Below the pieces are notes generated by a model, which was not told the origin of the DNA, did no database searches, and saw nothing but the letters and a program-made list of their open reading frames with translations. Below are positions 1 through 63,564 of a DNA stretch of 64,000 nt, one piece after another. The DNA comes from Enoplolaimus lenunculus (Eukaryota): NCBI GenBank assembly GCA_030248215.1, contig JASANG010000424.1, forward strand, positions 124,001-188,000. Reading direction: 5' to 3'. Both the position numbers and the translations under genes were made by a program. Within the stretch, counting starts at the first letter, position 1. Each line of letters begins with the position of its first letter.

Positions 1-155
1 AAGTTGCATACTGAGATTTCACACCATTATTTCGCGTCCCCTCTCGAAATTACGCGTGGTATATGTCCGCTTCATTGCCGCCCTCAGATACCTTCACAAC
101 CGAACAAAGTCCGTCCAAATGTTCACCTGTGCTTGCCCATAACATACGACCCTCG

Positions 156-6100: not shown

Positions 6101-7434
6101 TTTTGTTTGCGTACAACTGATGTATTTGATTCCAGTCTGAAAAAAAATTGAAAATTTAAATTTTTAAACATTTTGCATCTGTTGATAGAGGTTACATTTG
6201 AGAGTCGATTAACGATTAGTTAAATTCTGAGTCAAAGTTTTTTTACTCAAAAATTTAATGTAATTTTGACGAAATTTAGTGTTTTCAGCAATTGTAGAAA
6301 TAGTTTCTGAAACCACACGGCCAATGTATAGAACAGGGCCGGAACAGTGGTATAAACGTATTACTAAGCCTAAAGCGTAAGCCTAAAGCTAAGCAAAAAA
6401 TTAGTCTAAGCTTAGTCTATTGCAGTCCAGCAGAAAACGAAGCGCTATTAATGTACACATGAGCATCCCATTGTGAGAACTTCGATTTCATTATTTCTGT
6501 TCCTTAACTTTAGGCTTAAGCAAAAGTTTAACTGTAAACGTAAAGCAAGCGTAAAGGCCAATGCTCTGTAACAGTAGATTAAGCGTAGTCCCAAGCCTAA
6601 GCCTAAGCCTAAGCGTTGCAAAAGCGTATTCCTAAACCTAAGCCTAAGCCTAAGCAAAAAAGTAGTCTAGAATGTAAGCCTACTCTTTTAGAGACCGACC
6701 AGAAACCGGGACGGCACTAAAAGTAACATGGACCAGCATACGGGTAAGACTAGTCTAAGCATAATCCTTTATGCATAAGAAAGATGATAAAGGCTAAGCC
6801 TAAGTTATCGCTATGCCTGTGCCGTTCCAAAATGCTCTTTAAACTAACATAGGCTGCAACTTTTCGGCTTTAGGTTTAGGTTTAAGCTTAAAGAATAATT
6901 GAAAGTCTAAGCATAAGTTTGATAATTTCGTCGAAGCGTAAATCTCTGTCGATGCCCAGTGGGAAAATCAGACCCGATTAAAATTACTTGGGTCGCAGCT
7001 TTCGGTCTTAGGCTTAGGTTTAGGCTTACGATAAATTTTGGTCTCCGGAGGAATTGACTATATAAAAAACCCACCGCATAAACTATTGACTTACTAGCTT
7101 TTCGAATCAAATCTAGTGTCCGGTTCAAATCGTGAAGGGTGGAACCATACAAACACGATACCGTAATCGCTTTAGGAACAACATGAAATTCAGGATCACA
7201 AAAGCACGACGGACCATCGGCAGAGTACTGCGAAGTATCGTAAGACAGTAGCGATTGGCAGCCTGGAATAGGACTCGCTAGCCTTCCGTCAGTGGGCATG
7301 TCCACGGCCGTGGAGGGAGCCTGAGACCGACTGGGCAAAGCGAACACGAGTAGGATTTGGAATGTTGTTACAATGACGTGGAAAAATCTGAACATTCGGG
7401 GTCGGGTCTTGGGTACTAAATGTATAAAAGCCAT
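156..7434 (-). CDS. Leucine-rich repeat single-pass transmembrane protein (signal peptide, Cys-rich N-cap, many LRRs, LRRCT, TM, short cytoplasmic tail), 720 aa. Exons 7434-7095, 6136-5784, 4587-4245, 3709-3212, 2324-2118, 577-156
   Basis: All five introns are GT-AG with TTTCAG acceptors; phases join 1,0,1,1,1 and the total is 2163 nt (721 codons). LRR motifs include LTYLNLASNRI, LKNLSLVRNQI, LTLLDLSQNKI and IERLHLDGNFI. LRRCT DNPFICDSKLVPFVEW...LCHKPKSLRD lies in exon 2324-2118, which the ORF track misses. TM is VVWIIISVTVSAVILCAIIIVVALSV. The start could be the second Met (MFRFF...). Confidence 0.9.
1848..2058. mobile_element. Palindromic MITE family C (~210 bp); further copies at about 38786-38972 and 39125-39443 (the latter internally duplicated)
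   Basis: TA|CACTGCAAGAAATAATGAGTCAA...TTGACTCGCTATTTTTGGCAGCG|TA with nested GAGTCAAATTCGACTC palindromes. Confidence 0.75.
3986..4237. mobile_element. MITE family A copy in intron 3 of the LRR gene
   Basis: Degenerate CACTGTAAATT TIR at left, ATTTACAGTG at right, internal GAGTT/AACTC palindromic repeats. It ends 7 bp from the exon-3 donor. Confidence 0.8.
4988..5711. repeat. Tandem array of a 103-bp unit (~7 copies) bounded by 11-bp inverted ends, in LRR intron 2
   Basis: Unit starts at 5297, 5400, 5503 and 5606; ends are GCGTTCAAAAT / ATTTTGAACGC. Confidence 0.9.
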
Positions 7435-10400
7435 TTTTAATAAGTAAGATAATATTTACGCATTGCTGAGCTGAGTATTTAAATTAATATTCTTGCATTT
7501 TTGAATCTATTGCTAACTTGTGATTGGTGCTACTCTGTAAATTCCAAAGAGTTGATTAATCAATTCAGCTTCCGAATTAGTTATTGTCACCGTCTTGTGT
7601 CGTATATATTTTTTGTTTTTTTTTCAGTCTGTGCAATTTGAATCCTTTGATCTGCGCAGGAGCGTATGGTTATTGGCGTTTGTTTCGTATCAGGGCCTTA
7701 AAATGGTATGAGACCCGGGCGTCAGATGAACAAGAATTCCTATTTCATACGGTTCACAGGTACGGATAGCGCCCTAAACAGCAGTGGGCCCCTTGAATCC
7801 GGTCCTGGCGTGTTATTTCATATATATTTTGTATATATTTTAAAGCGTTGGTTTTTCACATTTTGTAAGTCGTTGTTGTTTTGCGTTTTCGTTTATTTTT
7901 CTGTTTGCTGCAAAATTAAAAAACGCCAGTGTGTTTTTTAAAAACTGGGGTAGTAGTTCAAACACCGGCAAATGTATAAAAGAGGGCGGAACATTTTTCT
8001 GTGTTAGCTTATGCTTTATTAAGACTAATTTTTCTTGCTTGGCTTAGGCTTAGGCAATTTTTCTTGCTTGGCTTAGGGTTAGGTTTAAGCTCGTTCTTGC
8101 GCTTAGGCTTAGGCTTAGGCTTAAAGGAAAATTCTTTATACGGTTCCGCCCCAGTTCTTTGCACAAACATCGTGTATATTCTTTACGCCTACTTTTTCAG
8201 TTTCGCCAAAAGAAGGATGGCCCTAAAAGCCAAAAACATGGACCGGTGCAACACCCAACCAGTCGTAACGGTAGTATAGCATATGCCTAAGCCCAAGCTA
8301 TAAAGCGTAAAGATGAGGCTATTCCTAAACGTAAGCCTAAAGACTATGTCTAGTAGAACGTTAGTCTCAAGCTTAAACTGACTCTATTTTACAGCCTGAC
8401 GGAAAATGTTACGGCCCTATTTTATACATGGGCCGCTTTGGCTATGCTTTTTATATTCTTTCCGCCCCTCTTCTATTGGTTTATTTTGACGGCGTTGCCC
8501 AGATTGTGCCTATATGTTGAGGGCCGCCCCTGCGTTTTGAGAAAACAAACACGAGTGCAGCACCAGACATATATTCCAGCCCTATACGAAAAAATTCGCC
8601 GTGAGGTCGGTTCATTTGGAACGGATGTTTAAAAAATTAAAAAAATTAAAAAAAAACTAAAAAAATCTATTTTTTAAAAACGTACTGTGGCAGTAGTGAT
8701 ATGGCAACTAGACTGCTATATTTCTGAATGCCAGCAACCATCTAAGCCCTAGCTTTAAACTACCCGCATCGCTGTTGGTGTTATAAGCAAAAAGGACAAC
8801 CATCTAAAGGTTCCAAATGAAAAATAGTAGCTGTAAGCGAATGCGATTTTGAAATTTGAGTAGTTGTCTACAGACATGTCTTCGAAATAAAGTGTAGACA
8901 ACTACTTAAAAAATAAAAGACGAAAATTATAACCAAAAACTTTATGTTTAAAAATTTCAAACGTATTGACGGTTGCTGTAAAACTTCTCCTAGGGCAGCT
9001 GCCGTTGAAAAATTAAGGAAGAGCCGGTTGACAGCAGTCGTCAACGGTCGATGAGACATTCCACACCCCGTACCCAAATAACTGTGGACGACGCATAATA
9101 TCAGTAAACATTAACTCACTCTCATTTGAGTTGATTCTCACTCTGAGTTGAGTTGACTCTGTGTTGGTTGATTAATTAGCTCAGAATGAAATGAATCAAC
9201 TCAAAATTCTGAGTTCTGATAGTCCTAACTCAGACTAAGTAATTCGACTCATTCTGAGTTAAAATCATCTCACTGAAATTTACACTGTACATCCATTTGA
9301 GTTTTCACTGGCCTAAATTTCAACCTATCACAAAAGAGCGTAAACAAGCTGAACGAGAGTTTGTATTATAAAAAACACTGTTCTTACAATATTTGGCTCA
9401 TGTATAGGTCATATGAGGACAGCTATTTGGCGCGACTGCAATAGAGTAAACTTAAGTTTTGCTTAGACTTACGCTCACGCATAGGCGTAGGGTCAGGCAT
9501 CAACTAGTAATGGGCCTAGAAAATTGCTTATACTACTACTATTACGACAATCGAAGTAACATTGGCCGTGCGAGTTTAAGCCTTAAACTTTTTTGCTTTA
9601 TTTTACGCTCAGGTTTAGGTTTAGGAATATGCTTATACTACTTTCACGGCCGTGATTTGTACCTTGGTGAAATATATTGAGGTAAGTTTGTTGTAAAAGT
9701 GCTAATAAACCAAAAGTGAGAAAATTGCAAAGTAAAAATATAAAATTCTTAAATTAATTTATGACTCTAAAGTTCGTTGAACATAAATTGAAAAACATTT
9801 AATGTGCGGGTTTCGCTCAACTGTTTTAGGAAAAACAACAAGAGGAACATGCAACAGCAATAGATTCCTCGGACCATGTTACTTTTAGGGGCGTCCAGGT
9901 TTTATGTGAGTCTGTAAAAGAGTAGGTTTAGTTTCCAGATTACATTTTTTCTGCTTAGGTTAAGCTTAGACTTAGAAATACGCTTGATCTACTGGTACGT
10001 CCCTAAAAATAACATTGGCCGACTCCTCAATGAAACATTTGTTTTAAGCCCCATTCACACGTGTAAATTTTTGCTGCAAGAACTCGAAGCAGAAATTTGC
10101 ATTAAATACTTGCAGCTTCAAGTATTTTAAAAGAAACATTCCGATTGACCAATCAAACTGCAGTTGCAAGAAATTCTCAAGCGGCTTGCAACTGTGTTCA
10201 TAGGTGCGAAATAAATTAAATCATATGAATTTCAGTGAATAATTTGCAGCCGTGTGAAATTCAATGCTGCTTTGCGACCAAACTCTTGCACATGCAATTG
10301 CACGTGCAATTTTTGCTGCAAAAACTTGCGCGTGTGAATAGAGCTTTACAATTTCCTTTCCTAAAATTTTGCAGAATAAAGTTGAGAAAACATATATCGT

Positions 10401-12339: not shown

Positions 12340-13533
12340 CAGGGTGTTTCAGAAGTAACTCCCACGACGATCTCTCCCTGAAAAAATCTGTGTTGTAAAA
12401 CTTTACTATAAATACGGAAATTATGCTGAAGTCTCACGCCAGTGGAAAAATCATTTCAACTCAATCCCTCCTATTCGCAAGACGATGACTGATATTATTT
12501 CCAGATTCGAGGACACTGGTAGTGTAGCGGAACGGCTGAGGCCGGGTCGTCCAAGGTCTGCCACAAGTGGGGAGCAGAAAGCTGCATTAAGCGCTGCGGT
12601 ATTCAGGAGCCCCCAGAAGTCAACTCGAAGGACTTCCCTCCAGCTGGGTATTCTCACACTTCCGTTTTTTGCCTTTACAAGGAGCTTAACTTGAAGCCCT
12701 TTCGACCCCGTCTTACCCATGGAATCTCTGATGATGATTTCGATCGCAGAGCCCAGTTTTGTCAGACATTTATGGACATGGTGGAAAGCAGTGCGTTGGA
12801 CCTTGAACGCATTTTGTGGACCGACGAGGCAGTTTTCAAGCTCAATGGTCATGTTAATCGCCATAATTGTTTATTTGTCTGAAGACTATCCACATGTCAC
12901 GATTAGCAAAGAGGTCAACGCCCCTGAAGTCTGTGTTTGGGCCGGAATTTGTTCACACGGCATCGTTGGTCCATTCTTTTTTGGACGGAAATGTCAATAA
13001 AACCAGCTATTTGGAACTTTTATCTGTGAATGTCTACCCGCAAATCGCAACTGAGGACCTTGTTTTCATGCATGACGGAGCCCCAGCTCACTACGCTACC
13101 GAACTCCGCGCTTGGCTGGACGAAAGGTTCCCGAATCGATGGATCGGCCGCAGAGGTACCATCGAGAGGCCAGCTAGGTTACCAGACTTAACTCCGCCTG
13201 ACTTCTTTCTTTGGGGTGTTGCGAAAGAAGATGTTTATGGAAGTAGGGCGAAGGACCCTCAAGAATTGATGACAGAATAAAATCAGCGTTTTCTAAAATT
13301 CCAGTGGACTTATGCGCCAAAGTTTGCCGATCTGTACCATCCGGACTGGAGAAATGCATTCAGCTTGGCGGTGCACAGACAGAGCTGTTCTGAGATCTCT
13401 CGTCGTAATGTAAAGTAAACTTTTAATACTTTTAATACTTGTTTATAATTATACAAAAAACAGGCGAGCTACCTCTGCCCAGTCAACCGATAGTTAGCAT
13501 CAAACAGTCTGTAGTTACTTCTGAAACACCCGG
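12340..13533 (+). mobile_element. Tc1/mariner transposon, DD41D (rosa/Visitor) family, with 21-bp TIRs and TA target-site duplication
   Basis: TA|CAGGGTGTTTCAGAAGTAACT ... AGTTACTTCTGAAACACCCGG|TA (20/21 match), enclosing transposase homology. Confidence 0.93.
12362..13393 (+). pseudogene. Frameshifted DD41D transposase (N-terminal HTH of the DUF4817 type plus DDD catalytic domain)
   Basis: Pieces lie in different frames: SRFEDTGSV...RPGRPRS; ILWTDEAVFKLNGHVNRHNC; VCVWAGICSHGIVGPFFF; FMHDGAPAH...RWIGRRG...PDLTPPDFFLWG. There are 41 residues between the 2nd and 3rd catalytic Asp. Several frameshifts and no start codon. Confidence 0.88.
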
Positions 13534-15501: not shown

Positions 15502-18500
15502 TTAATCCAGATCTGTTGCATTAACAGTCTCGCGTTGCTCAATTTCTTCTGTCGATTCTGCCGTACTTCCGGGAAACATTTTTGGCAGTACGCCAGCGGC
15601 GATTTTAGTCATCGCTTCCATCGGGCTACCAACGATGTAGACCTTATCGCCAGCGCCGGCATTAAACGCCTGCGCGGCAGCCGAAACACTGCTAAGGAGC
15701 GCAAGTTGACGACCGAGTGCGGTCTCTTCTTGCAACCTAGCAGCGTCTCGTCTGCCTTGGGCGATAATACGCTCACGATCTGCATCGCTTTGAGCGCACG
15801 TTGCAATTGTGTCGCGTTCAATGCATGCAGCATCGTAGGCGTTTTTAGCGTCTCCGAGCTGATTCACCCTGTTGGTTCGCATTTGTTCTTCGGCCACTTG
15901 CCGCTGTGTTTCAGCGACCACCAATGCTGTGTTTCGATCAATTTTTGCTTTCGCTTGCTTGTCAAGCTGAAGCTGGACTTCAGGCATCGGCAGAGCGTTG
16001 TTGATGGTTAATTTTGCCACACGGACGCCGTACTCAACCAAATCAGTGTTCAAACTGTCCAAAAGTGTGTCAGTTTGAGCGTTCAAAAAATTTTGAATAG
16101 CGAAATTCATCGTTACCAACGCTCCAACGCCAGGTTCAAACGGCGCCGCCGGAGATGTCTGGACGTCAAACGGCGTCTCCGACAACGTCGTCGTCTCATC
16201 AGGCGCGCTCGGAGTGAGTCTAGACGCCGCGGCGGCGTCTGGACGACGCTTCGAGCGATCCTGACGAGACGCAAGTTTGTCGCTGAAAAACGCGTCATCG
16301 TCTGTCATACAGACGTGTCCGACGCTTTCAGCGAGACAGGATTTAGCGAAACGTAACACCGTACGACGCAGGTTGTCGATGTTACGCGACGCTGAACTGA
16401 TATGAAAATGTTCGTCCTGTTCTGACGCACTCGTGTCGGCGGTGCGTTTCAGTTCCATGACGTTCATCGCTTTGTGTGCCGCCGCTTCTGTGTCCTGAAT
16501 TCGATTACAGAAAATGATAATTTTGACCCACGTAAAGATCACAGGCGGAACGTTTTTCTGCGCGACTGCAATACTGTAAGTTTAAGCTTTAGACTATTTT
16601 TGCTTAGGCTTAGGCTTAGACTACGATATAAGATCACTCTTACAGGTAGGCCAAGGCCGCTCCCATCCAACGGGGGAGGTGCACTGTAGGGCCACTCCCC
16701 CTCGGCTGGTTCTTCCCAAATAGACTCTGTCAAATAGTAAACCATCTTGAATTGCAATTGCAGTGGAACCCCAAAATTATTCGGTGTCCACCGAATATAG
16801 TTTTCTGCGTATGCACGTGAGTGATGCTAAGGCATAGGATTAGGCTTAGGAATATGCTAAATCTACTATTACGGCCCTTTTTATGCACTGGCCAGAATTT
16901 TCTATAATAACTTGCGTATATACATCATTTCACAATTTTTCATATTTTTCTATATCATCATATAATAGTTGCGAAACTATGCAACCTTGCTCTTTACGCA
17001 CAGTATAACTGCACTGTATATTCTAATGAGTTGATTAATCAATTCAGCTAGCGAGTTGGTTATTTCTGAATTAATATCAATAAACATTAGTTTACTCTGG
17101 AGTTGAGTAGATTCTCTCACTCTGAGTTAAGTTGACTCTGGTCGTATCGATTATTAACTAACTCACAATGAATTGAATCAATTCAACATTCTGAGTTCTC
17201 ACAGTCCTAACTCGTACTGGCAAAAAAATACGGTTTTTAACCTTAACACCAAATAAGCTTACAAAAATTTCCCAAAACAACATCGCATCCAAATAGATTA
17301 CCGCGCCGTCTTTGGTTTTGGTTTGCAAATAAATCGCCGGATCTAAACTGCCTTGAGTGACTTGTGGCAGTTCACCGTGAGCTTTCGTCAAACTTGCAAT
17401 ATATTTCGGTACGTCAGTAACAATTCGATCGGTCAAAATTATTTTAGGAACCAATTTGGCAAATTTAAAATTTTCATGACACAAATGATGCTGCATACCG
17501 CCGTTGAGAACGACCGTACGTCCGTTATCAATTGCGATCCCGTCGTACTGATCCGGGATGGTGATCCATTTTTCAGGACCAACTTTAATGTAGAATTGGT
17601 TTAATTTGATAGTGTCTCGAAACTGCATTGTATCACGGATTAAGTGCAATCCTGGCCCGAATATTTTAAACTGTCCATTGTATTCAAATAACGCGATTGT
17701 TCCTTGGTCAACGGTTATGATCGTTAAATCCAGATTGTGTGGCACCTGAACCAACAATTAACAAGGCAATAACGGGTGTTTATTTTTGTGGCCCATGTAT
17801 AGAACACGGCCGGAACAGTAGTATAAGCATATTCCTAAGCCTAAGACCAAGCCTAAGCCTAAGCGCATGGATGAGCCTATTCCTAAGCCTAAGCCTAAGC
17901 CTAAGCCTAAACCTAAGCCTAAGCCTAAACCTAAGCCTAAGCCTAAGCGCAGGGATGAGCTTATTCCTAAACCTAAGCCTAAACCTAAACCTAAGCAAAA
18001 AATTAGTCTAAAGCTTAAACTGACTCTATTATAGCCCTTCCGGAAAACGATCCGGCCCTGTTCTATACATGGGCCATTTTAGTTATCGGATCAACAATTG
18101 TTTGACCAAAAATGGTTTAATTTTGAAAATTTTACCATATTTAGGCTACGATTGAATAATAGTCTCGTTAGCATTCATGCCACTAGTTTATATTTAATTC
18201 GAGTAACTTTTGAACCAGTGAATAAACTTTTAGACAACTGTGTAGACCATTCTATTTATTGATGCAGTTGTTTCCTTTGCTCGTATTCTCAAATGTGTGT
18301 AGTACCTATCACCAGTTGGCGATAGGTCTTGTAACTTTCGAAATAGTGAATGCTCAGGCAAACAGTTTAGCACATTTTTTGCATTTGATGTGCTCTACTT
18401 CTGTATCAATTTAGGGTTCCGCAACTGCAACATTTAGCGATTTTGATAACCTATTACTAACTGACGATAGTTGCAATACACATTTGAGAATATGGACACT

Positions 18501-20301
18501 CATTTCAAACTAATTTGAAAACTTTCGAAACTTTATTGTGATAGTTGCTATAATCATTTAGAAATTTTATACACTGTTTCTGCACATTTCAAGACTGGGG
18601 TTAGGCTTAGTCTTAGGTTTAAGCAAAAGGCTTAAAGCCTTTTTCGAAACAAAAGATCTGAGTGTAAAATCCTGAGCGTGAAATTTGGGATAAAACTGGC
18701 CAAATTCTGAATTGGAGAACACAAATCCAGTATAAAACTACTCGCCTTTTTCTGAAACGAATGAATTTCTTTCAAGCTTCGATAGACGCCCAAAAAGTGA
18801 TAGCCAGGTCCGTAGATTTTAGTTTCAGGTTTGGCAGTCGAATGATCTTCAACCAGCGCAAAATGATTATTGGGTACGACAAATTTAGCCGAATTTGAGT
18901 AGTACAACAGGCATGGAAATGTGACGACAGCGAACGGACAGCAACAGCCGCAGAGTAGGCGACGGACGTCTAACGCAAATTGGCTCGTGTTACCTGGTAT
19001 CATTTGCATCATTTTTTCAATTTCAGCAATTGGTTTGTCTTCTGGTCGATCACAAATCTAAAAGCATTACTGTCTCAGAGTGCCAGATCCCGAGACTACA
19101 CCTTGCGAACATTCTTCCCTGGTGTCGAACACCAAGAACACCCGTCAGAGGTCAGACTTGTGAGTGGATTCAATTGATTCTTAATTTAAAATCAACTCAG
19201 TGGAATTTTCAGTGAACATTACTCCATACAATGGTGTTCAGACATAGACCAGTTATTTCTAAAATTTTCGCTGAAATAAAATTGAAATCACTAGTTCAAT
19301 GTCACGTTGAATTTGTTTAGCCAAGGTAGAATCGAGTTTAAATGTAATTGATTCAAAAATGAATAAAATTTAACTTGAGCCTAAGGTATACTTTACTATC
19401 AAAGACTTAAATCTAATGTGATATTCCAAGTTCATTTGGAAATGTCTGTTTTGCTATAGGTCAATCTATGGCTCTGAGAGTCTTCCATGAACCAATGAAA
19501 ATATCTCTTTTGCTGTAGGCCAATCTATGGGTCTGAGGGCCTTTCATGAACCAATGAAAATATCTCTTTTGCTATAGGCCAATCTATGGCTCCGTAGGGC
19601 CTCCCATGAACCAATGAAAATATCTCTTTTGCTGTAGGCCAATCTATGGCACTGAGGGCCTTTCATGAACCAATGAAAATATCTCTTTTGCTATAGGCCG
19701 ATCTATTGCTCTGAGAGGCTTCCTTGAACCAAAACAGAGGTATTCCGCCAAAACTCTTGCTCGATGCTTAGTTGGAATTTTAAAAATGGGTCATAAGTTT
19801 TACGGTAGAATTTTGCAGAATTTTGATTGGTCGTGTCATCTTTATTTCGGTCAGGCGGTGTTATTGTACCAAAACTATTTGCCAAACGCGCTGCACGATA
19901 CAATTTTTAAAACCACTTATAAATTCACTATCAAAATTATTAAAACCTCTGACAAAAATACTACCAGAGTCGCCGGTTGATTTTCTGACGGACCCGGAAG
20001 CGGACCTACAGTTGCACCCTGGTTCATGGATCATCTACTGACGTGTCACGGTGGGTCACGGATGACATATCGTCACTTGATATCATCTCAGCCGACAAAT
20101 TTCTGGCTATCCATCCAATTTTACCTTATATTGCATTGTAAGTCGGTGTTCAAATTGCCGATAAGCTTCGGTAATATGAACGTCGCGGTCAGCGGCAGAA
20201 TATCTTGTTGTACTTGTGGTTCCAGGCATTGGGTTTGGTCCATGCGTTGAATCTGAATTGACCATTTGGCCCTTTGAATGCGTAAACATCTTCGCTTCCA
20301 T
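15502..20301 (-). CDS. SPFH/band-7 superfamily protein with Cys-rich hydrophobic N-terminal segment, tandem beta-repeats, SPFH domain and C-terminal coiled coil (vacuolin-like architecture), 654 aa. Exons 20301-20125, 19057-18746, 17745-17263, 16494-15502
   Basis: Four exons, all phase 0 (177+312+483+993 nt). SPFH motifs: YLQTKTKDGAVIYLDAMLFWEIFD, IDNLRRTVLRFAKSCLAESVG and LNTDLVEYGVRVAKLTINNALP, followed by an Ala/Glu/Arg coiled coil. Repeats of the form V..G...L...G..KI[YF]GPG.H. Intron 2 donor is AAG|GCGAGT. Confidence 0.85.
17790..18075. mobile_element. MITE family B with a long (GCCTAA)n tract, in intron 2 of the SPFH gene
   Basis: ATTTTTGT|GGCCCATGTATAGAACACGGCCGGA...TCCGGCCCTGTTCTATACATGGGCC|ATTTTAGT. 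Confidence 0.85.
18283..18494. mobile_element. Small TIR element (family H); half copies at about 13880-13955, 33360-33435 and 37722-37755
   Basis: TATTCTCAAATGTG...ACCTATCACCAGTT at left mirrors AACTGACGATAG...CACATTTGAGAATA at right. Confidence 0.55.
19445..19732. repeat. Minisatellite, ~59-bp unit x5, in SPFH intron 1
   Basis: Repeated TTTTGCT[A/G]TAGGCCAATCTATGG.TCTGAGGGCCTTTCATGAACCAATGAAAATATCTC. Confidence 0.9.
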
Positions 20302-36163: not shown

Positions 36164-37155
36164 AATGCTAGCTTAACATGCAAATGTAGACCCTCCACGT
36201 ATTTAGAAGACGATAAAAAGTTTAAGAGAGAACACATCTGTTTTTGATAGATCGACTACGAGATACAAGCGTGTTTTAGAACATTTTCACGAAGTCACAA
36301 AATTTTCCAGGGTAGTTGAACTCGCCTGTGGGGCGTTTTGCTATTAATTCATAAGGGTCGACACAAACTCAGGCAACACTCGCGTAGACTAAAACTTATT
36401 TTAAGCTCGTAAACAAGCGAAATTTTGTTAAGCAATAGATGATATTTGACGTTATAAATTAAATTAATTGGAGAAATGTGGTTTCATTGACTTCCTCGAA
36501 TAGAAAGCGTGCCTCAAAACCATACATCCGAAATGTCTCAGTGGTGATGATTCTGGGCAGGGTTGTCCCCACGGGGGGCATTGTGGGGCCGTGCGCCCCC
36601 CCCCCTTAATAGTCTCGGTCTAAAAGTAAACAAACTTAAATTGAAATTGTGCACTGTAAATTCCAGCTAGTTTGAGTTAAATCCATTCAGAGGTTTGAGC
36701 TCTGAATTATGTGTTTCAGAACTCAGAATTATGAACTGATTGAACTCAATCTGAGTTAATTCAATCAACTAACCCAGAATCAAATCAGCTCAGAGTGACT
36801 TTAATATTTACTGTTATTAACTCAGAAATGACCAAATATAACTAATTCTCTATCTGGGTCGATTAATCAACTCACTGGAATTTATACAGTGTACATGCCC
36901 TCCAAATTTATTCGGTTCTTCCCAAATTGCGGACTCCCCTGATTCCAGGGTGGCGAGCATCGACCGAGGGCACATTTTTAATTCTTGCAAAAAATTTCGC
37001 ATTATTTTTCACGGGATCTTGCGAGACAGGAAAGTAAAAAACCTTAAATATACTGAATACACCAATCAAATGCATGTATATTTTTAAGAAATTAAATTTA
37101 TAAGTTATAATAGCATAAACTAATAAATTTTAACATATTTAATACAAATTTAAGA

Positions 37156-40100
37156 ATGCTACGACTTGTGCTAGGCGTTCCGGTAGCTGTGACCATTATG
37201 CTACTTATGTTAACCGAGCCAGCCTCGTGCGGTAAGGCTTTTATTCTTTTAGACTGTAAATTTCACTGAGATGATTTTAACTCAGAATGAGTTGAATCAA
37301 TCAGCCTGAGTTAGTACTATCAGAACTCAGAACTTTGAGTTGATTCAATTCGTTCTGAGTTAATTAATCAACTCACCCTGAGTCAACTCAACTCAGAGTG
37401 AGTTAATGCTTACTGATATTAATTCAGAAATAACTAACTCGCTAGCTGAAATGATTAATCAACTCATTGAAATTTACAGTGTAGGTACCAGGAAATGCAT
37501 TAATATATTGAAGCACTTCATTTTGTTATTCAAACGTTATATATATTTATGTATATATGTATATATGTATATACATGCCAAAATGTGGCCCCAAGGATCG
37601 GGTCCCCTAAGTGATGATTTTGGGGTCCGCTTTCTTCGTGGTCCGCGAAACAATTTTTTAACTTCGGCCTAAAGTTTCAAAGTTTTATTACCAAAAATAC
37701 TGATAGTTGGAAAATCTTATTTGAAAACCTACTACTAACTGGTGATAAAGTGCTATTTTTATATTTCTTTTTGAATTTTTTTGTTTAAATTTCAGCGTTT
37801 AGAATGAAGCGATTCTTGTTGCCTCACAGAATTGCTCGTACACAACGGTTAGGATTGCCTGGAAGTCGTAAGAATTTGTTAAAATAATTATTTCGCATAT
37901 GCGCAGTACAAAATCTCTACAATACCGTTTAAGGAGCATTCGTTTGTTCACTCGGCAGGCGCTGCTATAATGTTTCATTGGTCATTTTCGACTCTAAACC
38001 GACGTTTGAGTACAAATTGAAATATATGTAATTTGATTCGAGAATGGGTAAAAAATAGAATTTTTAAGAAAACACGCCCGTAGCCAGCTTAGTTTGCTAG
38101 GGAAACTGATCATTTTTCAGAAGGGGAATACAAGTGTTTCCGGCGACTTAAATACTATCAACGTTAAAAATTTTCTGGGGAGGGCATGGCATGCAAAGTT
38201 CCAAGAAGGGGGGCTGAGCCTTACAAGCCCGCACCCCTGGCTACTGGCACGTAAGAAAGTTTAAGGTAAACTATTTCAAATTACTGTCTGTCTTTCAGTG
38301 CCAATGCATTTATACGACAAACGGTTTTTGTTGCCGCACAGAATAGAACGCAAGTCAACTATTGCGGTGTTTGATGGTAAGTGCGTTTTGCCGTTGCCAA
38401 TGGTTCGTCAGATGGGCTCAATCCCCTTGGATAAATTTCGGTGCTCATTAAAAATTAGACCCCATTTGTTAATCACGTAGGCCCATGTATAGAACAGGGC
38501 CGGATTGCTTTCCGGACGGGCTATAATAGAGTCAGTTTAAGCTTTAGACTAATTTTTTTGCTTAGGCTTACGTTTAGGCTTATGAATATGCTTATACTAC
38601 TATTGCGGCCCTGTTCTATACATGGGCCATCATATAAAATCGCCAAATGCGCCGCACGAAATATTCTGCTTCCCTAACCCTAGAAAATTTAGTTGGATAC
38701 GGTGAGGACAAAGGGCATAAGCGAACGATATTGGCTTAGTTGTATAATTCTATGTGATGTTATTGTTAGAATTTATGTTTGATTACACTGAAAAAATGGT
38801 GAATCAAATTGACTCCCTTCGAAATAGGCTCCATGGGACAACATATACTGAGTCAAATTAGACTCGGCCAGAGTCAAACGTGCGACTAAGTGAGTCGAAT
38901 TTGACGCAGTTTGTGTAGTCTCGTAGAGCCCATTTCGGAGAGAATCAATTTGACTCACCATTTTTTGCAGTGTATTTTTTAACAGTAAACTTTTTGCGTC
39001 CATAACCTACGTTTTTCAGCTCGTATCACTCACTTCAAAGTTGAACTTTGCTCAGATCCTGAATTAAATTTGCTTAAAAGTTCAATTAAACTCAACTGCA
39101 AGCTAAATTTTAACACCCAATATTACACTGCGAAACATGGTGAGTCAAATTGACTCTCCGAAATAGGCTTTTACGGACTACACAAATTGAGTCAAATTCG
39201 ACTCTGCGAGAGTCAAATTCGACTCACCAGGAGTCGCTCAGTGAGTCGAACTTGACTCTGGCGGTGTCGAATTTAACTCAGTGTTTGTAGTTCCGAAAAG
39301 CCTATTTAGAGTCAAATTCGACTCACCAGGAGTCGCTCAGCGAGTCGAACTTGACTCTGGCGGAGTCGAATTTAACTCAGTGTTTGTAGTCCCGAAAAGC
39401 CTATTTCCGAGAGAGACTATTTGACTCACCGTTTTTTGCAGCACACAAGCATTTCAGTTCATATTTGTTCTTTTTACACCACATTCCGAGCTAAATCTGA
39501 ACGTGAGTTCAACTTAACTCGACAAAATTGACACTGATAATGTTTCAACCGGGATGTCAGTCATTACAGATGAACCGCACCTGTTGGACAGCGGAACGCC
39601 TCCTCGTAAACGGTTTTTGATCCCTCATCGAATGGAGAAAAAACCGATGATTGTGCGAATTGTGCGCCGAGCGACTGTTCCTACTGAAATTTGGCCGGAA
39701 TACTGTAAGGATAGCCCAATGCTTTTGGACGACGTCCGTCACCGTCCGTCACTATGCGGTATCGTACGCGAATTCGCTCACGTACGATACCATATGGTGA
39801 CGACTGATGACGTAGCAAGTCATATGACATGCTTGGGTGCCTGCCTTGAAAGGTTTTGCCGTTCTAGTATAAGGTCGTGGGTACAGGCCTGCGCAGCATG
39901 GCGGTTAATGATGTGGCGTGGGCGAACTGCACTGCAAATGTCAGTGAGTTGAATTTAACTCAGAATGAGTTAAATCACTCAGCCTGATTTAGGACTGTCA
40001 GAACTCAGAATTTTGAGTTGATTCAACTCATTCTGAGTTAATTAATCAACTCGCTCATAGTCAACTCAACTCAGAATGCGAATCAGCACAACTCAGTGTG

Positions 40101-41780
40101 AGTTAATGTTTACTGATATCAATTCAGAAATAACCAAACTCGTTAGCTGAATTGATTAATCAACTCATTGGAATTTACTGTGTGTGGACAAAGGAAAGGT
40201 TCTGGACATATGTAAATGATATGCAAAACACTAGCAACAGAAAACGATTGTGTATTTGGAGGGATTGGGTCGTTTTGGAAGCGCTTTGATGTAGTTTGGT
40301 TATAATTTTGGTTTGGCTTCAGTAACGCCTTCTGATCAGAGTTAAGTTTTATATATTTTAAACGTCAAACAAAACATTGTTTTTCAACGATGGCGCTATA
40401 CTTTTTGGACGATAATAATCTGGTGCTGTCTGCTGTGGTCGGATGCCGTCTTCTGCCGTTTCGTACCATTTGGTATTATCCGGTGCCATCCGGTGCGCTC
40501 CGGTGCGGTACGGCATCGTATAAACACGAAATGCCGCACGTCTCAGAATGATAACTTCGCAGCAACTGCAACGTCACCCTGACCATTAAAAAATTGTGGA
40601 TATTTAAAATTTAGTGAAATGATAAATTGTCGAAATTTTGTTTTTTAATAATAAAAAATTTGGGTGAAATATTTTTCTTATTTTAAACGCGTTTCGCAAT
40701 TGCAAACGCGCCTATATTTCAACGTGAGTTTTCTGCAATTAGACAAAGTTTAAAATTTTAATCGCTAGTGTAAACAAAACACAATTTTTTTAGTGTCAAA
40801 AATGTGAATTATACCATATGTGGCGACGGTTTTGTAAAAATGTTAAAAGCGTTTGGTATTTTGACAAGATTTTTTAAAAAATTGGTGCCTATTTACACAG
40901 TAAATTTCAGTGAGTTGATTTTAACTGAGAATGAGTTGAATTACTCAGTCTGAGTTAGGACTATCAGAAATCACAATTTTGAGTTGATTCAAATCATTAT
41001 GAGTTAATTAATCAACTCAGCCAGAGTCAACACAACTCAGACTGAGAATCAACTCAACTCAGAGTGAGTTAACCCCTTCTCACACTGAGTTGCCTGTAGG
41101 CAACTCAGCGCAGTGTATATACGTTAAATAGTATATATCGCACCGTGTTTAACAATTGCAACCCGTATACATAGTACTAAATCACCACAAGACGTGAGAG
41201 CCCCCTCTGGCTCGAGCGTCAAGCTCCTATAGCTGAGTGGTGATGGTATTCGCCTCCCACTCCAGTCATTGGAGTTCGAATCCTAGGATAAAAGTAGGTC
41301 TCACGGAAAATAAAAAATATTCATGTGAGAATGGGTCAAAGTTTGCTGTTATTAACTCAGAAATAACCAACTAGCTTTTTGAATTGATTAAATCAACTCA
41401 TTGCAATTTACAGTGTAGGTATTTGAAAATAGGAACGTTGGCGAAACCATGATTTTGCAAAAAAGGTGATAATTTCAAAAAAGTTTCTTTTAATTCAAAC
41501 TTAAAAAGTATCTAAGAAATTATTTTTAAAAATCCCAAATCTTTGGCCGCTAGACTCGCTCTGGGTAGTGGGAAGGTGTACTTACTGTGGACAGGTACTC
41601 CATAATGGTATTTAATTATTTTTAGCAATTATCGGCGGAAGTTATTCCGCTCCACGAAGCTTTTTCGGTGCCAAACCGGCTATTGGATACATCCGGCGGC
41701 CTCAACAGCATTATTCAGGCTTGGAAGATCCAGAAGATACAAACTTTTTTCCATCACTTGAATCGAGTCGCTTCGGATGA
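37156..41780 (+). CDS. Putative neuropeptide precursor, 171 aa (signal peptide; three FL[L/I]PHR[I/M] peptides flanked by basic residues; C-terminal RFamide). Exons 37156-37231, 37796-37867, 38299-38376, 39570-39704, 41626-41780
   Basis: All donors are GTAAG and all four introns are phase 1; 516 nt total. Translation: MLRLVLGVPVAVTIMLLMLTEPASCAFRMKRFLLPHRIARTQRLGLPGSLPMHLYDKRFLLPHRIERKSTIAVFDDEPHLLDSGTPPRKRFLIPHRMEKKPMIVRIVRRATVPTEIWPEYSIIGGSYSAPRSFFGAKPAIGYIRRPQQHYSGLEDPEDTNFFPSLESSRFG*. Exon 4 could instead start at 39561 (same frame). Confidence 0.8.
37252..37481. mobile_element. MITE family A copy in intron 1 of the neuropeptide-like gene
   Basis: GACTGTAAATTTCAC...GAAATTTACAGTG with TA flanks. 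Confidence 0.85.
38480..38628. mobile_element. MITE family B in intron 3 of the neuropeptide-like gene
   Basis: TIR GGCCCATGTATAGAACAGGGCC on both ends; flanks ATCACGTA / ATCATATA. Confidence 0.82.
39929..40182. mobile_element. MITE family A copy in intron 4 of the neuropeptide-like gene
   Basis: CACTGCAAATGTCAGTGAGTTG...GGAATTTACTGTG. Confidence 0.85.
41073..41335. mobile_element. piggyBac-like non-autonomous element (TTAA target, CCC termini) carrying a tRNA-like segment
   Basis: TTAA|CCCCTTCTCACA...TGTGAGAATGGG|TCAA (11/12 TIR match) with a subterminal palindrome GAGTTGCCTGTAGGCAACTC. Related ends occur at about 26253 and 54384. Confidence 0.75.
41223..41290 (+). pseudogene. tRNA-derived sequence (Gly-CCC-like) with Pol III A and B boxes, probably not a functional tRNA
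   Basis: TAGCTGAGTGG (A box), TCGCCTCCCAC (tRNA-Gly-like anticodon arm) and GGAGTTCGAATCC (B box). The acceptor and anticodon stems do not pair properly. Confidence 0.55.
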
Positions 41781-41809: not shown

Positions 41810-42094
41810 AATTTACTTAAATTTACATTTTATAAAATATATGTAATTTTTGAAAAGTTTACCCGAAAATTACAGGTGTAAAAAAATATATTCCAAAAGT
41901 TTTGGTTTTTTATGTTAAAATTGGTAAAAAGTGTCAATCACAAAGATAAAAATTTACTTAAATTTACATTTAATAAAATTTAAGTAATTTTTCAAAAAAT
42001 TACCTGAAAATTCGGCTGTAAAAAATACATTTTGAAAGTTTTGGTTTTTTCATGATAAAATTGGGATTAAAACGTGTCAATCACAAAGGTAAAA
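41810..42094. repeat. Two diverged tandem copies of a ~140-bp AT-rich unit immediately 3' of the neuropeptide-like stop codon
   Basis: AAATTTACTTAAATTTACATTT...AAAGTTTTGGTTTTTT...GTGTCAATCACAAAG.TAAAA occurs twice. Confidence 0.8.
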
Positions 42095-44163: not shown

Positions 44164-47095
44164 CACTGTAAATTTCGATGAGTTGATTAATCAATTAAGA
44201 AAGCAAATTAGTTATTTCTGGTTATATCTGACTTAATAACAGTAAATGTTAACGCGCTCTGTGTTGATTTAATTGCGGGTGAGTTGTTTTAGCAGAATTC
44301 AGAATTATGAAAGACCAAATCCATAAGTTAGGTTTTTCAGAACTCTGAATTTTTAGTTAATCTATCACATTCGGAGTTAATTAAACAACTTATCAGGTAT
44401 TAAATTAACTCAGTGGGTTAATGGTTACTGTTATAAACTCAAAAATGACCAGAAATAAATAAATTTCTCTCTGAGTTGATTAATCAACTCATTGGACTTA
44501 ACAGTGACACATTTTGATACTTTCAAATTATATGCTTTATTTGGTAACGAATATATTTAAAAACCGTTTGGCAGTCGTCGAATATTTTTTTAATTTGTCC
44601 AAAATATCAGTGTTAACAACAAGTATCACTGTAAATTTCAGTGAATTGATTTTAATTCAGAATGAGTTGAATTACTATGTTTGAGGTAGGACTATCAGAA
44701 CTCAGAATTTTGAGTTGATTGACAATTCATTCAGAGTTAATTAATCGACTCACCCCGAGTCAACTCAACTCAGAGCGAAAATCAACTCAACTCAGAGTGA
44801 TCATCCACTCTTGCTGATATTAATTCAGAAATAACCAACTCGCTAGCTGAATTGATTAATCAACTCATTGCAATTTACAGTGATGGTGATGTTTTTAGTA
44901 TACTTTTTCAAAAATATTGAACCGACACCTATTATAATATATACTATATATCATTAAAAACAGAACTGTGAGTTCCAAATCGGTAAATTATTCAATTTTG
45001 CTTACAATCTGCGCTGTCAAAGAGTATACGAAACTGGCAAACTACCAATAATATTGCTTTGATATTAGAAACCAGACTGCAGAATTAAAGAAAAATATCA
45101 CAGACGAAACAGAGGCCACAAATAGTAATACAACACCTAGAAATAGGTTAGATGAAATAATTTACAAAGTTCAAATCTAAATTATAACCTAAGTTAGGTT
45201 TAAGCCTAAAATTAAAGCGCTGTGGTACACCCAGAACTTGATGGCTATCATGATAACGAATCTTTATAGGCTGTACGTTGTAAATTAGGCTAATGTTACT
45301 TTTAGGACCGTATTGGAAGATTAAGATCATTCCTACGCCGGCCAATGTAAAGAACAGGGGCGGAACAGCATTATGAGCATATATACTCCTAAGCTTAAGC
45401 CTAAACCCAAGCGCAAGAATGAGGATATTTCTAAGCCTAAAGCCTAAGCCTAAGCCTAAGCGTAAGAATGAGCATATTCCTACGCCTAAAGCCTAAGCCT
45501 AAGCCTAAGCGTAAGAATGAGCATATTCCTACGCCTAAAGCCTAAGCCTAAGCCTAAGCGTAAGAATGAGCATATTCCTAAGCCTAAGCCTACGTCTAAA
45601 CCAAGCAAAAAAATTGTCTAAAGCTTAGTCTTCGTCTATTCTAGTCCCGCAAAAAACTTTCCGCTCTGATCTTTACATGGGATCCTAACCCTAATAATCA
45701 TAAGCCTAAGCCTAAGCCAAGCAAAAAATTAGTCTAAAGCGCAAGCTTACTCTACTGCTGTCCCACACAAAAACTTTCCGCCCCTAATTTTTACATGGGC
45801 CCCTAAACATAAGCCTAAGTCTAGCCAAAAAAATATAGTCTAAAACGTCAGCGTAACTATTTTGGAATCACACCAGGAAACAGAACTGTCGTAAAATAGC
45901 ACAGGCCGTAAATTATATAGAACAGTACATCTGTCTTATCCTGTGAGAAGTTTGACCTTTATCTGTAGGTTATGCCGCAAATTCTTTCAGGTCTGTAGCC
46001 AGAGTACGCTCAGTTGCAAAAGGAAAAATCTTGGCCTAAACCCGGAAAAGTTTTAGTGTCGTTTCTAAGCTTGTATGTCAACCACATCCCCCTTGCACCT
46101 AACATTGTTTTGTTTCTCGAACAGGATGAGCAGGCTACACTGTAAATTCCAATGAGTTGATTAAAAAATTCAGCGAGCGAGTTGGTTATTTCTGAATTAA
46201 TATCAGTAGGCATTAACGCACCCTGAGTTGAGTTGTTACTTTGAGTTAAGTTGACTCTAGATAAGGTGATCAATTAACTCAGAGTGAATTGAATTAACTC
46301 AAAATTCTGAGTTCTGATAGTCCTAACTCAGACTGAGTGATTCAATTTATTATGAATTAAATCAACTCACTGAAATTTACAGTGTACAATCCTAAACTCC
46401 TTGCTGCCATTATAAAGGTCAGCTTAGAAAAACCCATATCCATCGTCGAAACTCACTGTTTGGCGACGCGGAGTTGGAATTTCAAAATTGAAAAAATGAA
46501 ACTGAAAATAGCTTGCAACATGTGGACAGGGCTTTTATACACAACTTTCATAAAATACAATTTTGAAAATGTACGCAGTAGGAGACGTGGCATACGTCAT
46601 TTCGAAATATTTATAACAGATATAAAATTTCTCAATTTGACTCTCCATTTTTTTGCAGTGTTCGTACGCCTTCACTGTAAATTCCAATGAGTTATAGTTA
46701 ATCAACTCAGACGGAAAGTTAGTTAATTCTGAGTTAATAACAGTAAACTTTAATTCATTCTGAGTTAACTTGATTCTCACTGTGAGTTGAGTTGACTCCG
46801 TGTGAATTGTTAAACTAAATCATAATGAGTTGAATCAACTCAGAATTGTGAGTTCTGATAGTCCTAACTCAGACTGAGTGATTCAACTCATTTTGAGTTA
46901 AAATCAACTCACTGGAATTTACAGTGTTTGCGCATCATTGGATTCTCACTGTGAGTTGAGTTGACTCCGTGTGAATTGTTAAACTAAATCATAATGAGTT
47001 GAATCAACTCAGAATTGTGAGTTCTGATAGTCCTAACTCAGACTGAGTGATTCAACTCATTTTGAGTTAAAATCAACTCACTGGAATTTACAGTG
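44164..47095. mobile_element. MITE family A copies at about 44164-44506, 44627-44882, 46138-46384 and 46673-46926, plus a duplicated half copy at 46941-47095
   Basis: Family A TIRs and internal repeats. Confidence 0.82.
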
Positions 47096-62100: not shown

Positions 62101-63564
62101 CACCATCTAGCTTAAAATAAGAATTTGAAGATTAGGGTAGATAAACTTACAAAACGATGATCGAAACTATCGTAACACAAAGTAGATTATGTAGGCGCTT
62201 GCAGTAAACGTACAAAATGGGTTTGTCTAAGTTTCTTCTATTGCATTTGGTTGATAATGAAACTTAAGTCATGAAATTACCTGTTCTTTTAATTCTGAAA
62301 ATGTTATGGAATTTGGTATACAGACTTGGGTCAATGAACATAAAATTTCTCGTTTCATTCATCTTGGAACAGATAGGTAGATAAGTATTATTATCAATAA
62401 TCCGCCTAATAGGCGTTCGCGAAGAAAAGTGTAGGGGAAGCTAATAATGGGTTACAGCTACTGTTTACAGACATTTTCGTCGATAGCGTCAAAAACGTTA
62501 GCTGGGCGACCGGATTATTCTTACGTTCTTGCTGATGCGTACGCAGTAATTGGCCGGTCACTTGGGCATGCGGAAAGATCTCAAGCACAAGTGATTGGTC
62601 CAACTGCACAACGGCCTTCAGAAGTTGAACAAACAGCACAAGGTGATCGTATTGCTATTGGTGGACGTCATTATGCCATCAGCTATGGACGGTTGTATAC
62701 GTATATAGCTGGATTGCTGCGTGGAATGCCTAACAATGTTGTTGTCCTTAATTCGTTGGGTAAGTGCGTTTTATCTTGAGAAAAGGTGTGCACTAATTGC
62801 TTGGGGAAAGATGGAAATTTGGGCAGGAGTAGGATAGTTCGAGGACAGGTTGAATAAATATTGGTGAGATGGAATATTTTCTGGAAAGGTGGGGTGCAAC
62901 ACTTAGCTGGGTATTTCAGGGAATACTTTGACGGATGTGTCATGTATTATGCACTTCTTTCTTTTGGCTTTTAAGATTTTTTTATTTTAGAGATGTTTAT
63001 TTTATTGGATTTGTTGGAAGAACTTGCTGAAGAAGTACGGTCACTTCCTGATGACAGTGATCGCACGAAGTATATCACGCAGTTGCTGGAAGCTAACGCA
63101 ACCGGTTCATTGAAACCAGGTAAGTACAGCATTGCGCTTTACACATGTTCGAAAACGATTACTTCTTCACTCAGTTGAGTATTCGGCTCATGACACATAT
63201 CAACCTGTTATCCCCGGAAAGCATGGAATTTTTCAAAATCATTTAAGACTGTTTGCAAAAGTAATTAATTTAACAGATTTTGCATTTGCCGGTAATGATT
63301 TTGTTCTGCATACAGTTGAGAATATTGAATAAAAGCAATGTAGTTTATTTTCTTCGGAAGACAATGATTATGGACTGTTTTATTGTTTTATTTGTGCTTG
63401 TAGTGATCTTTAAGTTGATTGCAGCACCTCGCCAAGTCACTACGCTCAGTTCAACTACAGAACAAGGCAAGCTATTTTTGGCGGAAGTCGATCTGACAAG
63501 TCTGAATCCGTTGAATATTCCTGTGAAATTATTGAAATTAACTGAAAGAACAAAATCGAAATGA
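59150..63564 (+). CDS. SNAPC2: Probable snRNA-activating protein complex subunit 2 (SNAPC2/SNAP45)-like protein with a long low-complexity N-terminus, 604 aa. Exons 59150-59344, 59656-60539, 61041-61107, 61542-61593, 61804-61862, 62471-62759, 62991-63119, 63425-63564
   Basis: Seven GT-AG introns with consistent phases (1815 nt). Myb/SANT-like block WSFEDKLQLLRTME...KTTKQVSDYFDKL, central block ISYGRLYTYIAGLLRG...LNSLEMFILLDLLEELAEEV and C-terminal SLNPLNIPVKLL. These match, in order, the conserved blocks I recall from vertebrate SNAP45 (WS..EK.QLL; DFEKIYKYLS...ESAVVLDLL..LPEEL; PLNPFLVPLELL). The gene model is firmer than the orthology call. Confidence 0.72.

What the first reader, a model, noticed from the sequence alone, without database searches (positions are those of the whole stretch)
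37156..41780. Hidden neuropeptide precursor encoding a peptide family I do not recognise: KR-FL[L/I]PHR[I/M]x-R/RK/KK, three copies
Seen: five small exons (76, 72, 78, 135, 155 nt) scattered among MITEs splice in frame into a 171-aa protein. It has a hydrophobic signal peptide ending PASC|A and three motif copies: KR-FLLPHRIA-R, KR-FLLPHRIE-RK and RKR-FLIPHRME-KK. The copies differ mostly at synonymous positions (AAG CGA TTC TTG TTG CCT CAC AGA ATT / AAA CGG TTT TTG TTG CCG CAC AGA ATA / AAA CGG TTT TTG ATC CCT CAT CGA ATG), which suggests protein-level constraint. Established: a signal peptide plus repeated short motifs between basic sites is the prohormone-convertase (PC2/EGL-3) and carboxypeptidase E (EGL-21) substrate layout. 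Inference: it yields non-amidated octapeptides FLLPHRIA, FLLPHRIE and FLIPHRME, which match no FLP/NLP family I recall, so this may be an undescribed peptide signalling system with an unknown receptor.
Basis: partly seen in the sequence, partly recalled or inferred. Interest (0 to 1): 0.88.

Follow-up and report, generated by a model that had tools for sequence, protein, structure and literature searches.

The report
Orphan three-copy neuropeptide precursor, likely nematode
A small gene hidden among repeats, seen partly spliced in one public sequencing run and likely from a roundworm, encodes a predicted secreted protein that would be cut into three near-identical short peptides matching no family we found, so it is likely a new but lineage-limited signalling peptide.

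Summary
The five exons (76/72/78/135/155 nt) splice through four GT-AG, phase-1 introns into a 171-aa frame with a signal-peptide-like start and three KR-FL[L/I]PHR[I/M]x copies, one per exon. A 325-nt contig in run X3 is spliced: it shows junctions 2|3 (9-nt overhang) and 3|4 directly, and 4|5 by exact length and depth arithmetic. Junction 1|2 was not seen. Copies 1 and 2 differ at 5 synonymous and 0 replacement sites. No homologue was found in 1.84 and 5.8 billion-protein searches, Pfam, PDB, metagenomes, or the nematode NLP lists searched. Best reading: a neuropeptide-type precursor, likely from a nematode, cut by PC2/carboxypeptidase E into non-amidated octapeptides and possibly one long RFamide. 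Processing, neuronal expression and receptor are untested. The layout is ordinary and species-limited NLPs are common, so this is a new member of a known kind with an apparently undescribed motif.

The parts
37149..37154 (+). acceptor-like TTTAAG one base before the start codon (possible trans-splice or 5'UTR intron acceptor; untested)
   Evidence: sequence
37156..37231 (+). exon 1: start codon and predicted signal peptide (aa 1-25), phase-1 GTAAG donor
   Evidence: 11-residue hydropathy up to 2.59; GC 0.53 against 0.12 upstream; junction to exon 2 not seen in X3
37232..37795 (+). intron 1, holds a high-copy inverted-repeat element
37796..37867 (+). exon 2 (72 nt, phase 1/1) with copy 1
   Evidence: its last 9 nt are joined to exon 3 in the X3 contig
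37807..37839 (+). copy 1: KR-FLLPHRIA-R (predicted peptide 37813-37836; RxxR site behind it)
38299..38376 (+). exon 3 (78 nt, phase 1/1) with copy 2
   Evidence: X3 contig lies exactly on 38299-38376 with 0 differences
38319..38354 (+). copy 2: KR-FLLPHRIE-RK (predicted peptide 38325-38348)
39570..39704 (+). exon 4 (135 nt, phase 1/1) with copy 3
   Evidence: table 8 (record 20 ends at the donor); (loose end equals the first 30 nt of exon 4, checked)
39605..39643 (+). copy 3: RKR-FLIPHRME-KK, followed by Pro (predicted peptide 39614-39637; C-terminal cut uncertain)
41626..41780 (+). exon 5, terminal coding exon
   Evidence: the remaining 79 nt of the X3 contig give the observed depth 3.78 in this bin
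41769..41780 (+). Arg-Phe-Gly-stop: predicted C-terminal RFamide signature
   Evidence: 1 of 2079 stop-ended frames in the window ends so, and it is this exon
41972..41977 (+). first downstream AATAAA, candidate poly(A) signal (untested)

Best explanation
This is a transcribed, spliced, single-copy gene, likely of a nematode, whose product is predicted to be a secreted neuropeptide-type precursor that would be cut into short FL[L/I]PHR[I/M]x peptides acting on an unknown, likely G-protein-coupled, receptor. SHOWN: the gene structure, splicing of exons 2-3-4 (and of 4-5 by arithmetic), one motif copy per phase-1 exon, and protein-level constraint on the motif. INFERRED from established pathway knowledge (recalled): the signal peptide sends the protein into secretory vesicles. 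A PC2/EGL-3-type convertase cuts after KR31, RxxR40, KR58, RK68, RKR90 and RR109, and carboxypeptidase E/EGL-21 trims the basic residues. This gives FLLPHRIA and FLLPHRIE. Copy 3 gives either FLIPHRME or a form extended to the RR at 108-109, because Lys-Lys-Pro is a poor site. The internal Arg is followed by Ile, Ile or Met in all three copies, which would protect it from monobasic cleavage. The terminal Gly would be converted to an amide, giving an RFamide-ending product of 25 aa (if RR145-Pro is cut) or 61 aa. The copy number likely grew by duplication of a phase-1/phase-1 exon.
For: Spliced contig in X3 (33+78+135+79 = 325 nt; predicted bin depths 3.686/5.505/3.782 against observed 3.69/5.51/3.78). 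Motif 3 hits against 0 in shuffles. All three copies have a phase-1 acceptor and a GTAAG donor in an open frame, against 0.33% of 70,528 background stretches. Copies 1 vs 2: 5 synonymous and 0 replacement changes, P about 5e-4 under neutrality. KR precedes all three copies and identity falls off outside the motif. Hydrophobic first exon. Terminal RFG-stop. A signal peptide plus flanking dibasic sites is the working definition used to call nematode neuropeptide precursors (PMC9881375, passages). TTAGGC arrays in the window's repeats match the usual nematode telomere repeat (PMC9071541, passages).
Against: No homologue was found, so conservation between species is not shown. The junction that attaches the signal peptide was not seen, and the X3 contig starts inside exon 2. 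The splicing evidence is one contig from one run whose kind is listed as 'DNA?'; its adapter-like 5' end was recognised from memory. Copies 1 and 3 lack clean dibasic C-terminal sites, and both KK100 and RR145 are followed by Pro. Motif-based cleavage prediction has a high false-positive rate (PMC10764246, passages). The synonymous-site test is biased, because the copies were picked by protein likeness. The organism is inferred, not identified (one search gave only distant LRR hits of 23-36% identity, and none of the named ones is a nematode).
Confidence: 0.75

Rival explanations
1. Same processing, but the peptides are made in glands or epidermis and act outside the nervous system (pheromone, antimicrobial, or host-directed peptides).
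For: The layout alone does not tell the tissue. The mature region is basic (pI about 10.6). The lack of homologues fits a fast-evolving gland product.
Against: Single-copy gene, short copies under strong constraint and a terminal RFG are more typical of neuropeptide genes (recalled).
Confidence: 0.12
2. It is a precursor, but the active products are the pentapeptides FL[L/I]PH, released by a monobasic cut at the Arg of PHR. They would end like the LGPH stretch conserved in nematode NLP-36.
For: That Arg has a basic residue at P8 in all three copies. This reading needs no cut at Lys-Lys-Pro. Many NLP-36 sequences carry R[LMV]GPH, often followed by Arg.
Against: The residue after the Arg is Ile, Ile or Met, which disfavours cleavage (recalled rule). 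Likeness among copies continues past the Arg. NLP-36 has one copy, a conserved Gly, and no KR-F start.
Confidence: 0.1
3. The main transcript starts at the exon-2 acceptor (for example by trans-splicing) and uses Met29, giving an intracellular protein in which KRFL[L/I]PHR is a repeated short binding motif.
For: A TTTCAG acceptor lies 8 nt before an in-frame ATG at 37804. Junction 1|2 was not seen.
Against: Exon 1 is a GC-rich, repeat-free, in-frame ATG-to-GTAAG exon with a hydrophobic core 564 nt upstream. Only 5 of 42 such ATG-donor candidates in the window are hydrophobic, and it is the only one on the + strand within 29 kb upstream. The RFG end would have no use in the cytosol.
Confidence: 0.05
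4. It is a strongly diverged member of a described family (FLP/NPF-like RFamide precursors, or NLP-19/NLP-41-like peptides), which would remove the novelty of the family.
For: Terminal RFG. C. elegans NLP-41 has F-x-L-P-x-R-x-x-R. NLP-19 has three non-amidated LP-core copies between basic sites.
Against: The invariant residues of those families are missing. NLP-41 is reported absent from all nine parasites examined. No Pfam or PDB match.
Confidence: 0.12

Closest known systems
Nematode neuropeptide-like protein (NLP) precursors as a class (McKay et al., PMC8764417; Cockx et al., PMC9881375)
   Same: Signal peptide, repeated short peptides between mono- or dibasic sites, and low-identity spacers
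   Different: The FL[L/I]PHR motif is absent from the 74 C. elegans rows read and from the supplements searched; here each copy sits in its own exon
C. elegans NLP-19 (R-[IMF]G[LM]RLPN motif)
   Same: Three non-amidated copies after KR/RR with a Leu-Pro core; the last copy ends in Glu-Lys-Lys
   Different: The conserved G-x-R-L-P-N residues are missing; the peptides are longer
C. elegans NLP-41
   Same: F-x-L-P-x-R-x-x-R spacing matches copy 1
   Different: One copy, directly after the signal peptide, with no KR in front; reported absent from nine parasites
NLP-36 (R[LMV]GPH stretch)
   Same: L-x-P-H-R-hydrophobic in some members
   Different: One copy, conserved Gly, different architecture; the Ascaris peptides tested as bioactive do not contain that stretch
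FLP / long RFamide precursors
   Same: C-terminal Arg-Phe-Gly before the stop
   Different: Only one RF-Gly, with Ser-Ser in front and a Pro-blocked upstream site; the repeated peptides are not RFamides. FLP sequences were not compared from a source here (recalled only)

Membership tests
Neuropeptide precursor (class) | Transcribed, spliced open reading frame | tested here: met
   junction 1|2 not seen
Neuropeptide precursor (class) | N-terminal signal peptide | tested here: inconclusive
   Hydropathy and the -3/-1 pattern fit; no SignalP available; junction 1|2 not observed
Neuropeptide precursor (class) | Repeated short motif flanked by basic cleavage sites | tested here: met
   KR before 3 of 3 copies; behind them RxxR, RK and KK-Pro
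Neuropeptide precursor (class) | Motif conserved in related species | tested here: inconclusive
   No homologue found; close relatives may be missing from the collections
Neuropeptide precursor (class) | Mature peptides detected, neuronal expression, receptor activation | not testable with these tools
   needs peptidomics, in situ data and a receptor assay
NLP-19 | [IMF]G[LM]RLPN core | tested here: not met
   compared by eye
NLP-41 | Single APGLFELPSR-type peptide directly after the signal peptide | tested here: not met
   compared by eye
NLP-36 | Conserved GPH stretch in a one-copy small protein | tested here: not met
NLP-8/14/15 type | [AS][FL]D-x-[LFM] ... FG repeats | tested here: not met
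   Exon 5 shares only FFGAK with NLP-8; the N-terminal motif is absent
FLP (RFamide) precursors | Peptide ending in RF-Gly at a processing site | tested here: met
   One copy at the C-terminus
FLP (RFamide) precursors | Match to a described FLP motif upstream of RF | not tested

The most novel reading that the evidence does not exclude
FL[L/I]PHR peptides are an old nematode peptide family, kept in poorly sampled lineages and lost or unrecognisable in C. elegans. They come from a hybrid precursor that also releases an RFamide, and they are the missing ligands of one of the nematode-wide orphan receptors that have no orthologue outside the phylum (four such are named in PMC11462694).
Probability: 0.1. 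Interest if true: 0.72.

Novelty: new member of a known kind. Interest (0 to 1): 0.42.

Why it matters
Nematode peptide catalogues are built mostly by searching with C. elegans sequences, and their authors say divergent genes are missed (PMC8764417). This gene gives two or three exact, cheap-to-synthesise candidate ligands with a motif not found in the lists searched, for use in receptor screens. It is also a clean example of peptide copy number growing one phase-1 exon at a time. Its importance is limited until the motif is found in a second species.

Tried and rejected
No whole genome is held for this window, so paralogues and receptors could not be searched. The run finder listed no RNA holder; this is no evidence either way, and X3 later showed a spliced contig. 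Three-copy profile against 78-2000-aa proteins: 0 of 27 candidates at E<=10. Exon 5: 0 of 11. Profile against 1.84 billion representatives: 4 hits at E<=0.001, all rejected; three are translations of a short bacterial-type repeat array (CRISPR-like, recalled) and one is a leafhopper tandem repeat. Metagenome pattern scan: 65 loci, each with a single match; none showed a second copy in six frames (my stricter regex re-found the match in only part of the loci, so this check is loose). Pfam: 0 of 5 exons at E<=10. PDB: 5 chance-level hits, E 0.67-1.1. Rfam and ARAGORN: nothing in the window. The Atlas gave no answer. A neighbour LRR search did not identify the organism. Read-through of exon 4 into intron 4 as the true C-terminus was rejected: X3 leaves the genome at the donor and the read-through overlaps a repeat. 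No extra exon with a phase-1 donor was found in introns 1-4, but my acceptor filter (score 4.5) would have missed exon 4's own acceptor (4.0), so weak exons are not excluded. The C. elegans NLP-42 spacer resembles the motif but is not conserved in the five other species aligned. Paper searches: FLLPHR 0 papers; LPHRI/FLIPHR/FLLPH/LPHRM 59 papers, 40 listed, none a neuropeptide-family paper by title; motif names 1 unrelated paper. No source for the cleavage rules could be opened, so they are recalled.
Full report
1. Observation. The five exons lie at 37156-37231, 37796-37867, 38299-38376, 39570-39704 and 41626-41780. They join to 516 nt, which is 171 codons and a stop. Every donor is GTAAG, every acceptor ends in YAG, and all four introns are phase 1 (my first attempt had exon 2 off by one base). 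The motif pattern occurs 3 times in 64 kb and in none of 100 shuffles. Each copy has an open phase-1 acceptor within 60 nt upstream and a GTAAG donor within 90 nt downstream, which holds for 0.33% of 70,528 open background stretches (the criteria were set after seeing the exons, so this is optimistic). The exons are free of repeats, while 34% of the window is repeated. They are GC-richer than the window mean of 0.37 (0.42-0.53). In runs X1-X3 they have single-copy depth, while intron elements reach 1e5-1e6.

2. Splicing is shown in part. The three holders are listed as 'DNA?'. In one search one 325-nt X3 contig lay on 39569-39704 only, ending at the predicted donor. Laying X3 and X1 on 37760-38470 showed the same contig on exactly exon 3. 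Its loose 3' end equals the first 30 nt of exon 4, and its loose 5' end finishes with the last 9 nt of exon 2 (checked). The rest of the 5' end looks like a cDNA template-switch adapter (recalled, from no call), which would make the + strand the transcript. The lengths add up: 33+78+135+79 = 325. The remaining 79 nt predict a depth of 3.782 in the exon-5 bin, and 3.78 was observed; the same arithmetic reproduces the exon-3 and exon-4 bins. X1 spans the stretch unspliced. So junctions 2|3 (9-nt overhang only) and 3|4 are seen, 4|5 is inferred, and 1|2 is not seen. This is one contig from one run; X3 also holds an unspliced contig across the exon-2 donor.

3. Constraint. Over the 9 core codons, copies 1 and 2 differ at 5 synonymous and 0 replacement sites (P about 5e-4 if neutral). 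Copy 3 differs from them by 5/3 and 3/3. Seven alignment columns are invariant (K, R, F, L, P, H, R) and the flanks are unlike. Choosing copies by protein likeness biases this test. One copy per phase-1/phase-1 exon suggests growth by exon duplication (inference).

4. Organism. Not identified. The window's repeats hold 128 TTAGGC/GCCTAA hexamers, against 29 of TTAGGG/CCCTAA, with six arrays of three or more units. TTAGGC is the telomere repeat of most nematodes (PMC9071541, passages). TTTCAG-type acceptors fit a nematode (recalled). A neighbour search gave only distant LRR proteins. 'Nematode' is therefore likely, not shown.

5. Mechanism. Residues 4-19 form a hydrophobic core, with cleavage possible after Cys25 or Ala26 (recalled rule). 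KR precedes each copy. Copy 1 is followed by an RxxR site, copy 2 by RK, and copy 3 by KK-Pro. By recalled convertase rules (no source could be opened), Pro or an aliphatic residue after the basic site disfavours cutting. This predicts that the internal Arg, always followed by Ile or Met, stays in the peptide, so FLLPHRIA and FLLPHRIE are the best-supported products. Copy 3 may be extended to the RR at 108-109. The frame ends in Arg-Phe-Gly-stop; 1 of 2079 stop-ended frames of 20 aa or more in the window ends so, and it is this exon (57 end in Gly). A GPCR target is an inference from the class. Motif-based prediction over-calls cleavage (PMC10764246, passages).

6. Relatives. None found: 0 of 27 candidates for the three-copy profile, 0 of 11 for exon 5, 4 rejected repeat-derived hits among 1.84 billion proteins, 65 single-match metagenome loci, 0 of 5 exons in Pfam, and chance-level PDB hits only. 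These collections are mostly prokaryotic and the queries were single exons or a 26-position profile. The blank is therefore weak evidence against relatives in other worms.

7. Literature. PMC8764417: abstract, parts 2-3 of the main section, supplements 4 and 8 whole, part 6 of 16 of supplement 1, and keyword searches of all 8 supplements. It has no FLLP, FLIP or LPHR. Partial look-alikes are NLP-19, NLP-41, NLP-36, the NLP-42 spacer and the FFGAK end of NLP-8; each lacks defining residues or the architecture. PMC11462694: passages and 9 supplements searched for 6 motifs, no hit. PMC9881375: passages and supplements searched, no hit, but file 6 (68 scanned pages) was unreadable and may show further precursors. 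That paper reports 19 new Steinernema precursors without C. elegans orthologues, so lineage-limited peptide genes are common. PMC8153747: main text only, PHR 0. Full-text searches found no paper with the motif. Subscription journals, bioRxiv supplements and FLP lists were not seen, so 'undescribed' holds only for these searches.

8. Verdict. The gene is real, spliced and constrained. It most likely works like a nematode NLP precursor (0.75), and it fails membership in each described family I could compare. It is a new member of a known kind with an apparently new motif, and interest is 0.42. It would deserve about 0.7 if the motif proves conserved across nematode lineages and activates an orphan receptor.

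Noticed in passing
run X3: Listed as 'DNA?' but holds a spliced contig with an adapter-like end, so it likely contains cDNA and could test splicing of other genes in this genome.
   Followed up: partly
window 50-7455, - strand: Multi-exon leucine-rich-repeat gene (Pfam LRR_8) with a signal-peptide-like start and a hydrophobic, membrane-like stretch near its end; best hits only 23-36% identical.
   Followed up: partly
window 15502-19057, - strand: Gene with few, long exons and a coiled-coil-like end that reads to me like a band-7/SPFH protein (recalled), yet has no Pfam hit; a possible divergent or transferred gene.
   Followed up: no
window 12359-13280, + strand: Broken transposase with a DUF4817 helix-turn-helix, Tc1/mariner-like by recall.
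   Followed up: partly
window 41076-41330: The highest-depth repeat in the gene (up to 1.6 million summed depth in X1), with a B-box-like stretch; possibly a tRNA-derived SINE. No ARAGORN or Rfam hit.
   Followed up: partly
window 38479-38635, 17758-18078, 45340-45800 and others: Inverted-repeat element family whose interior is built of TTAGGC-like telomere units.
   Followed up: partly
window 63274-63564 (+) and a start at 48852 (-): Two further frames with hydrophobic, signal-peptide-like starts and no Pfam hit for the first.
   Followed up: no
P0001, P0003, P0004: Spurious proteins translated from a short repeat array (CRISPR-like) score against this motif; a trap for short-profile searches.
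   Followed up: yes
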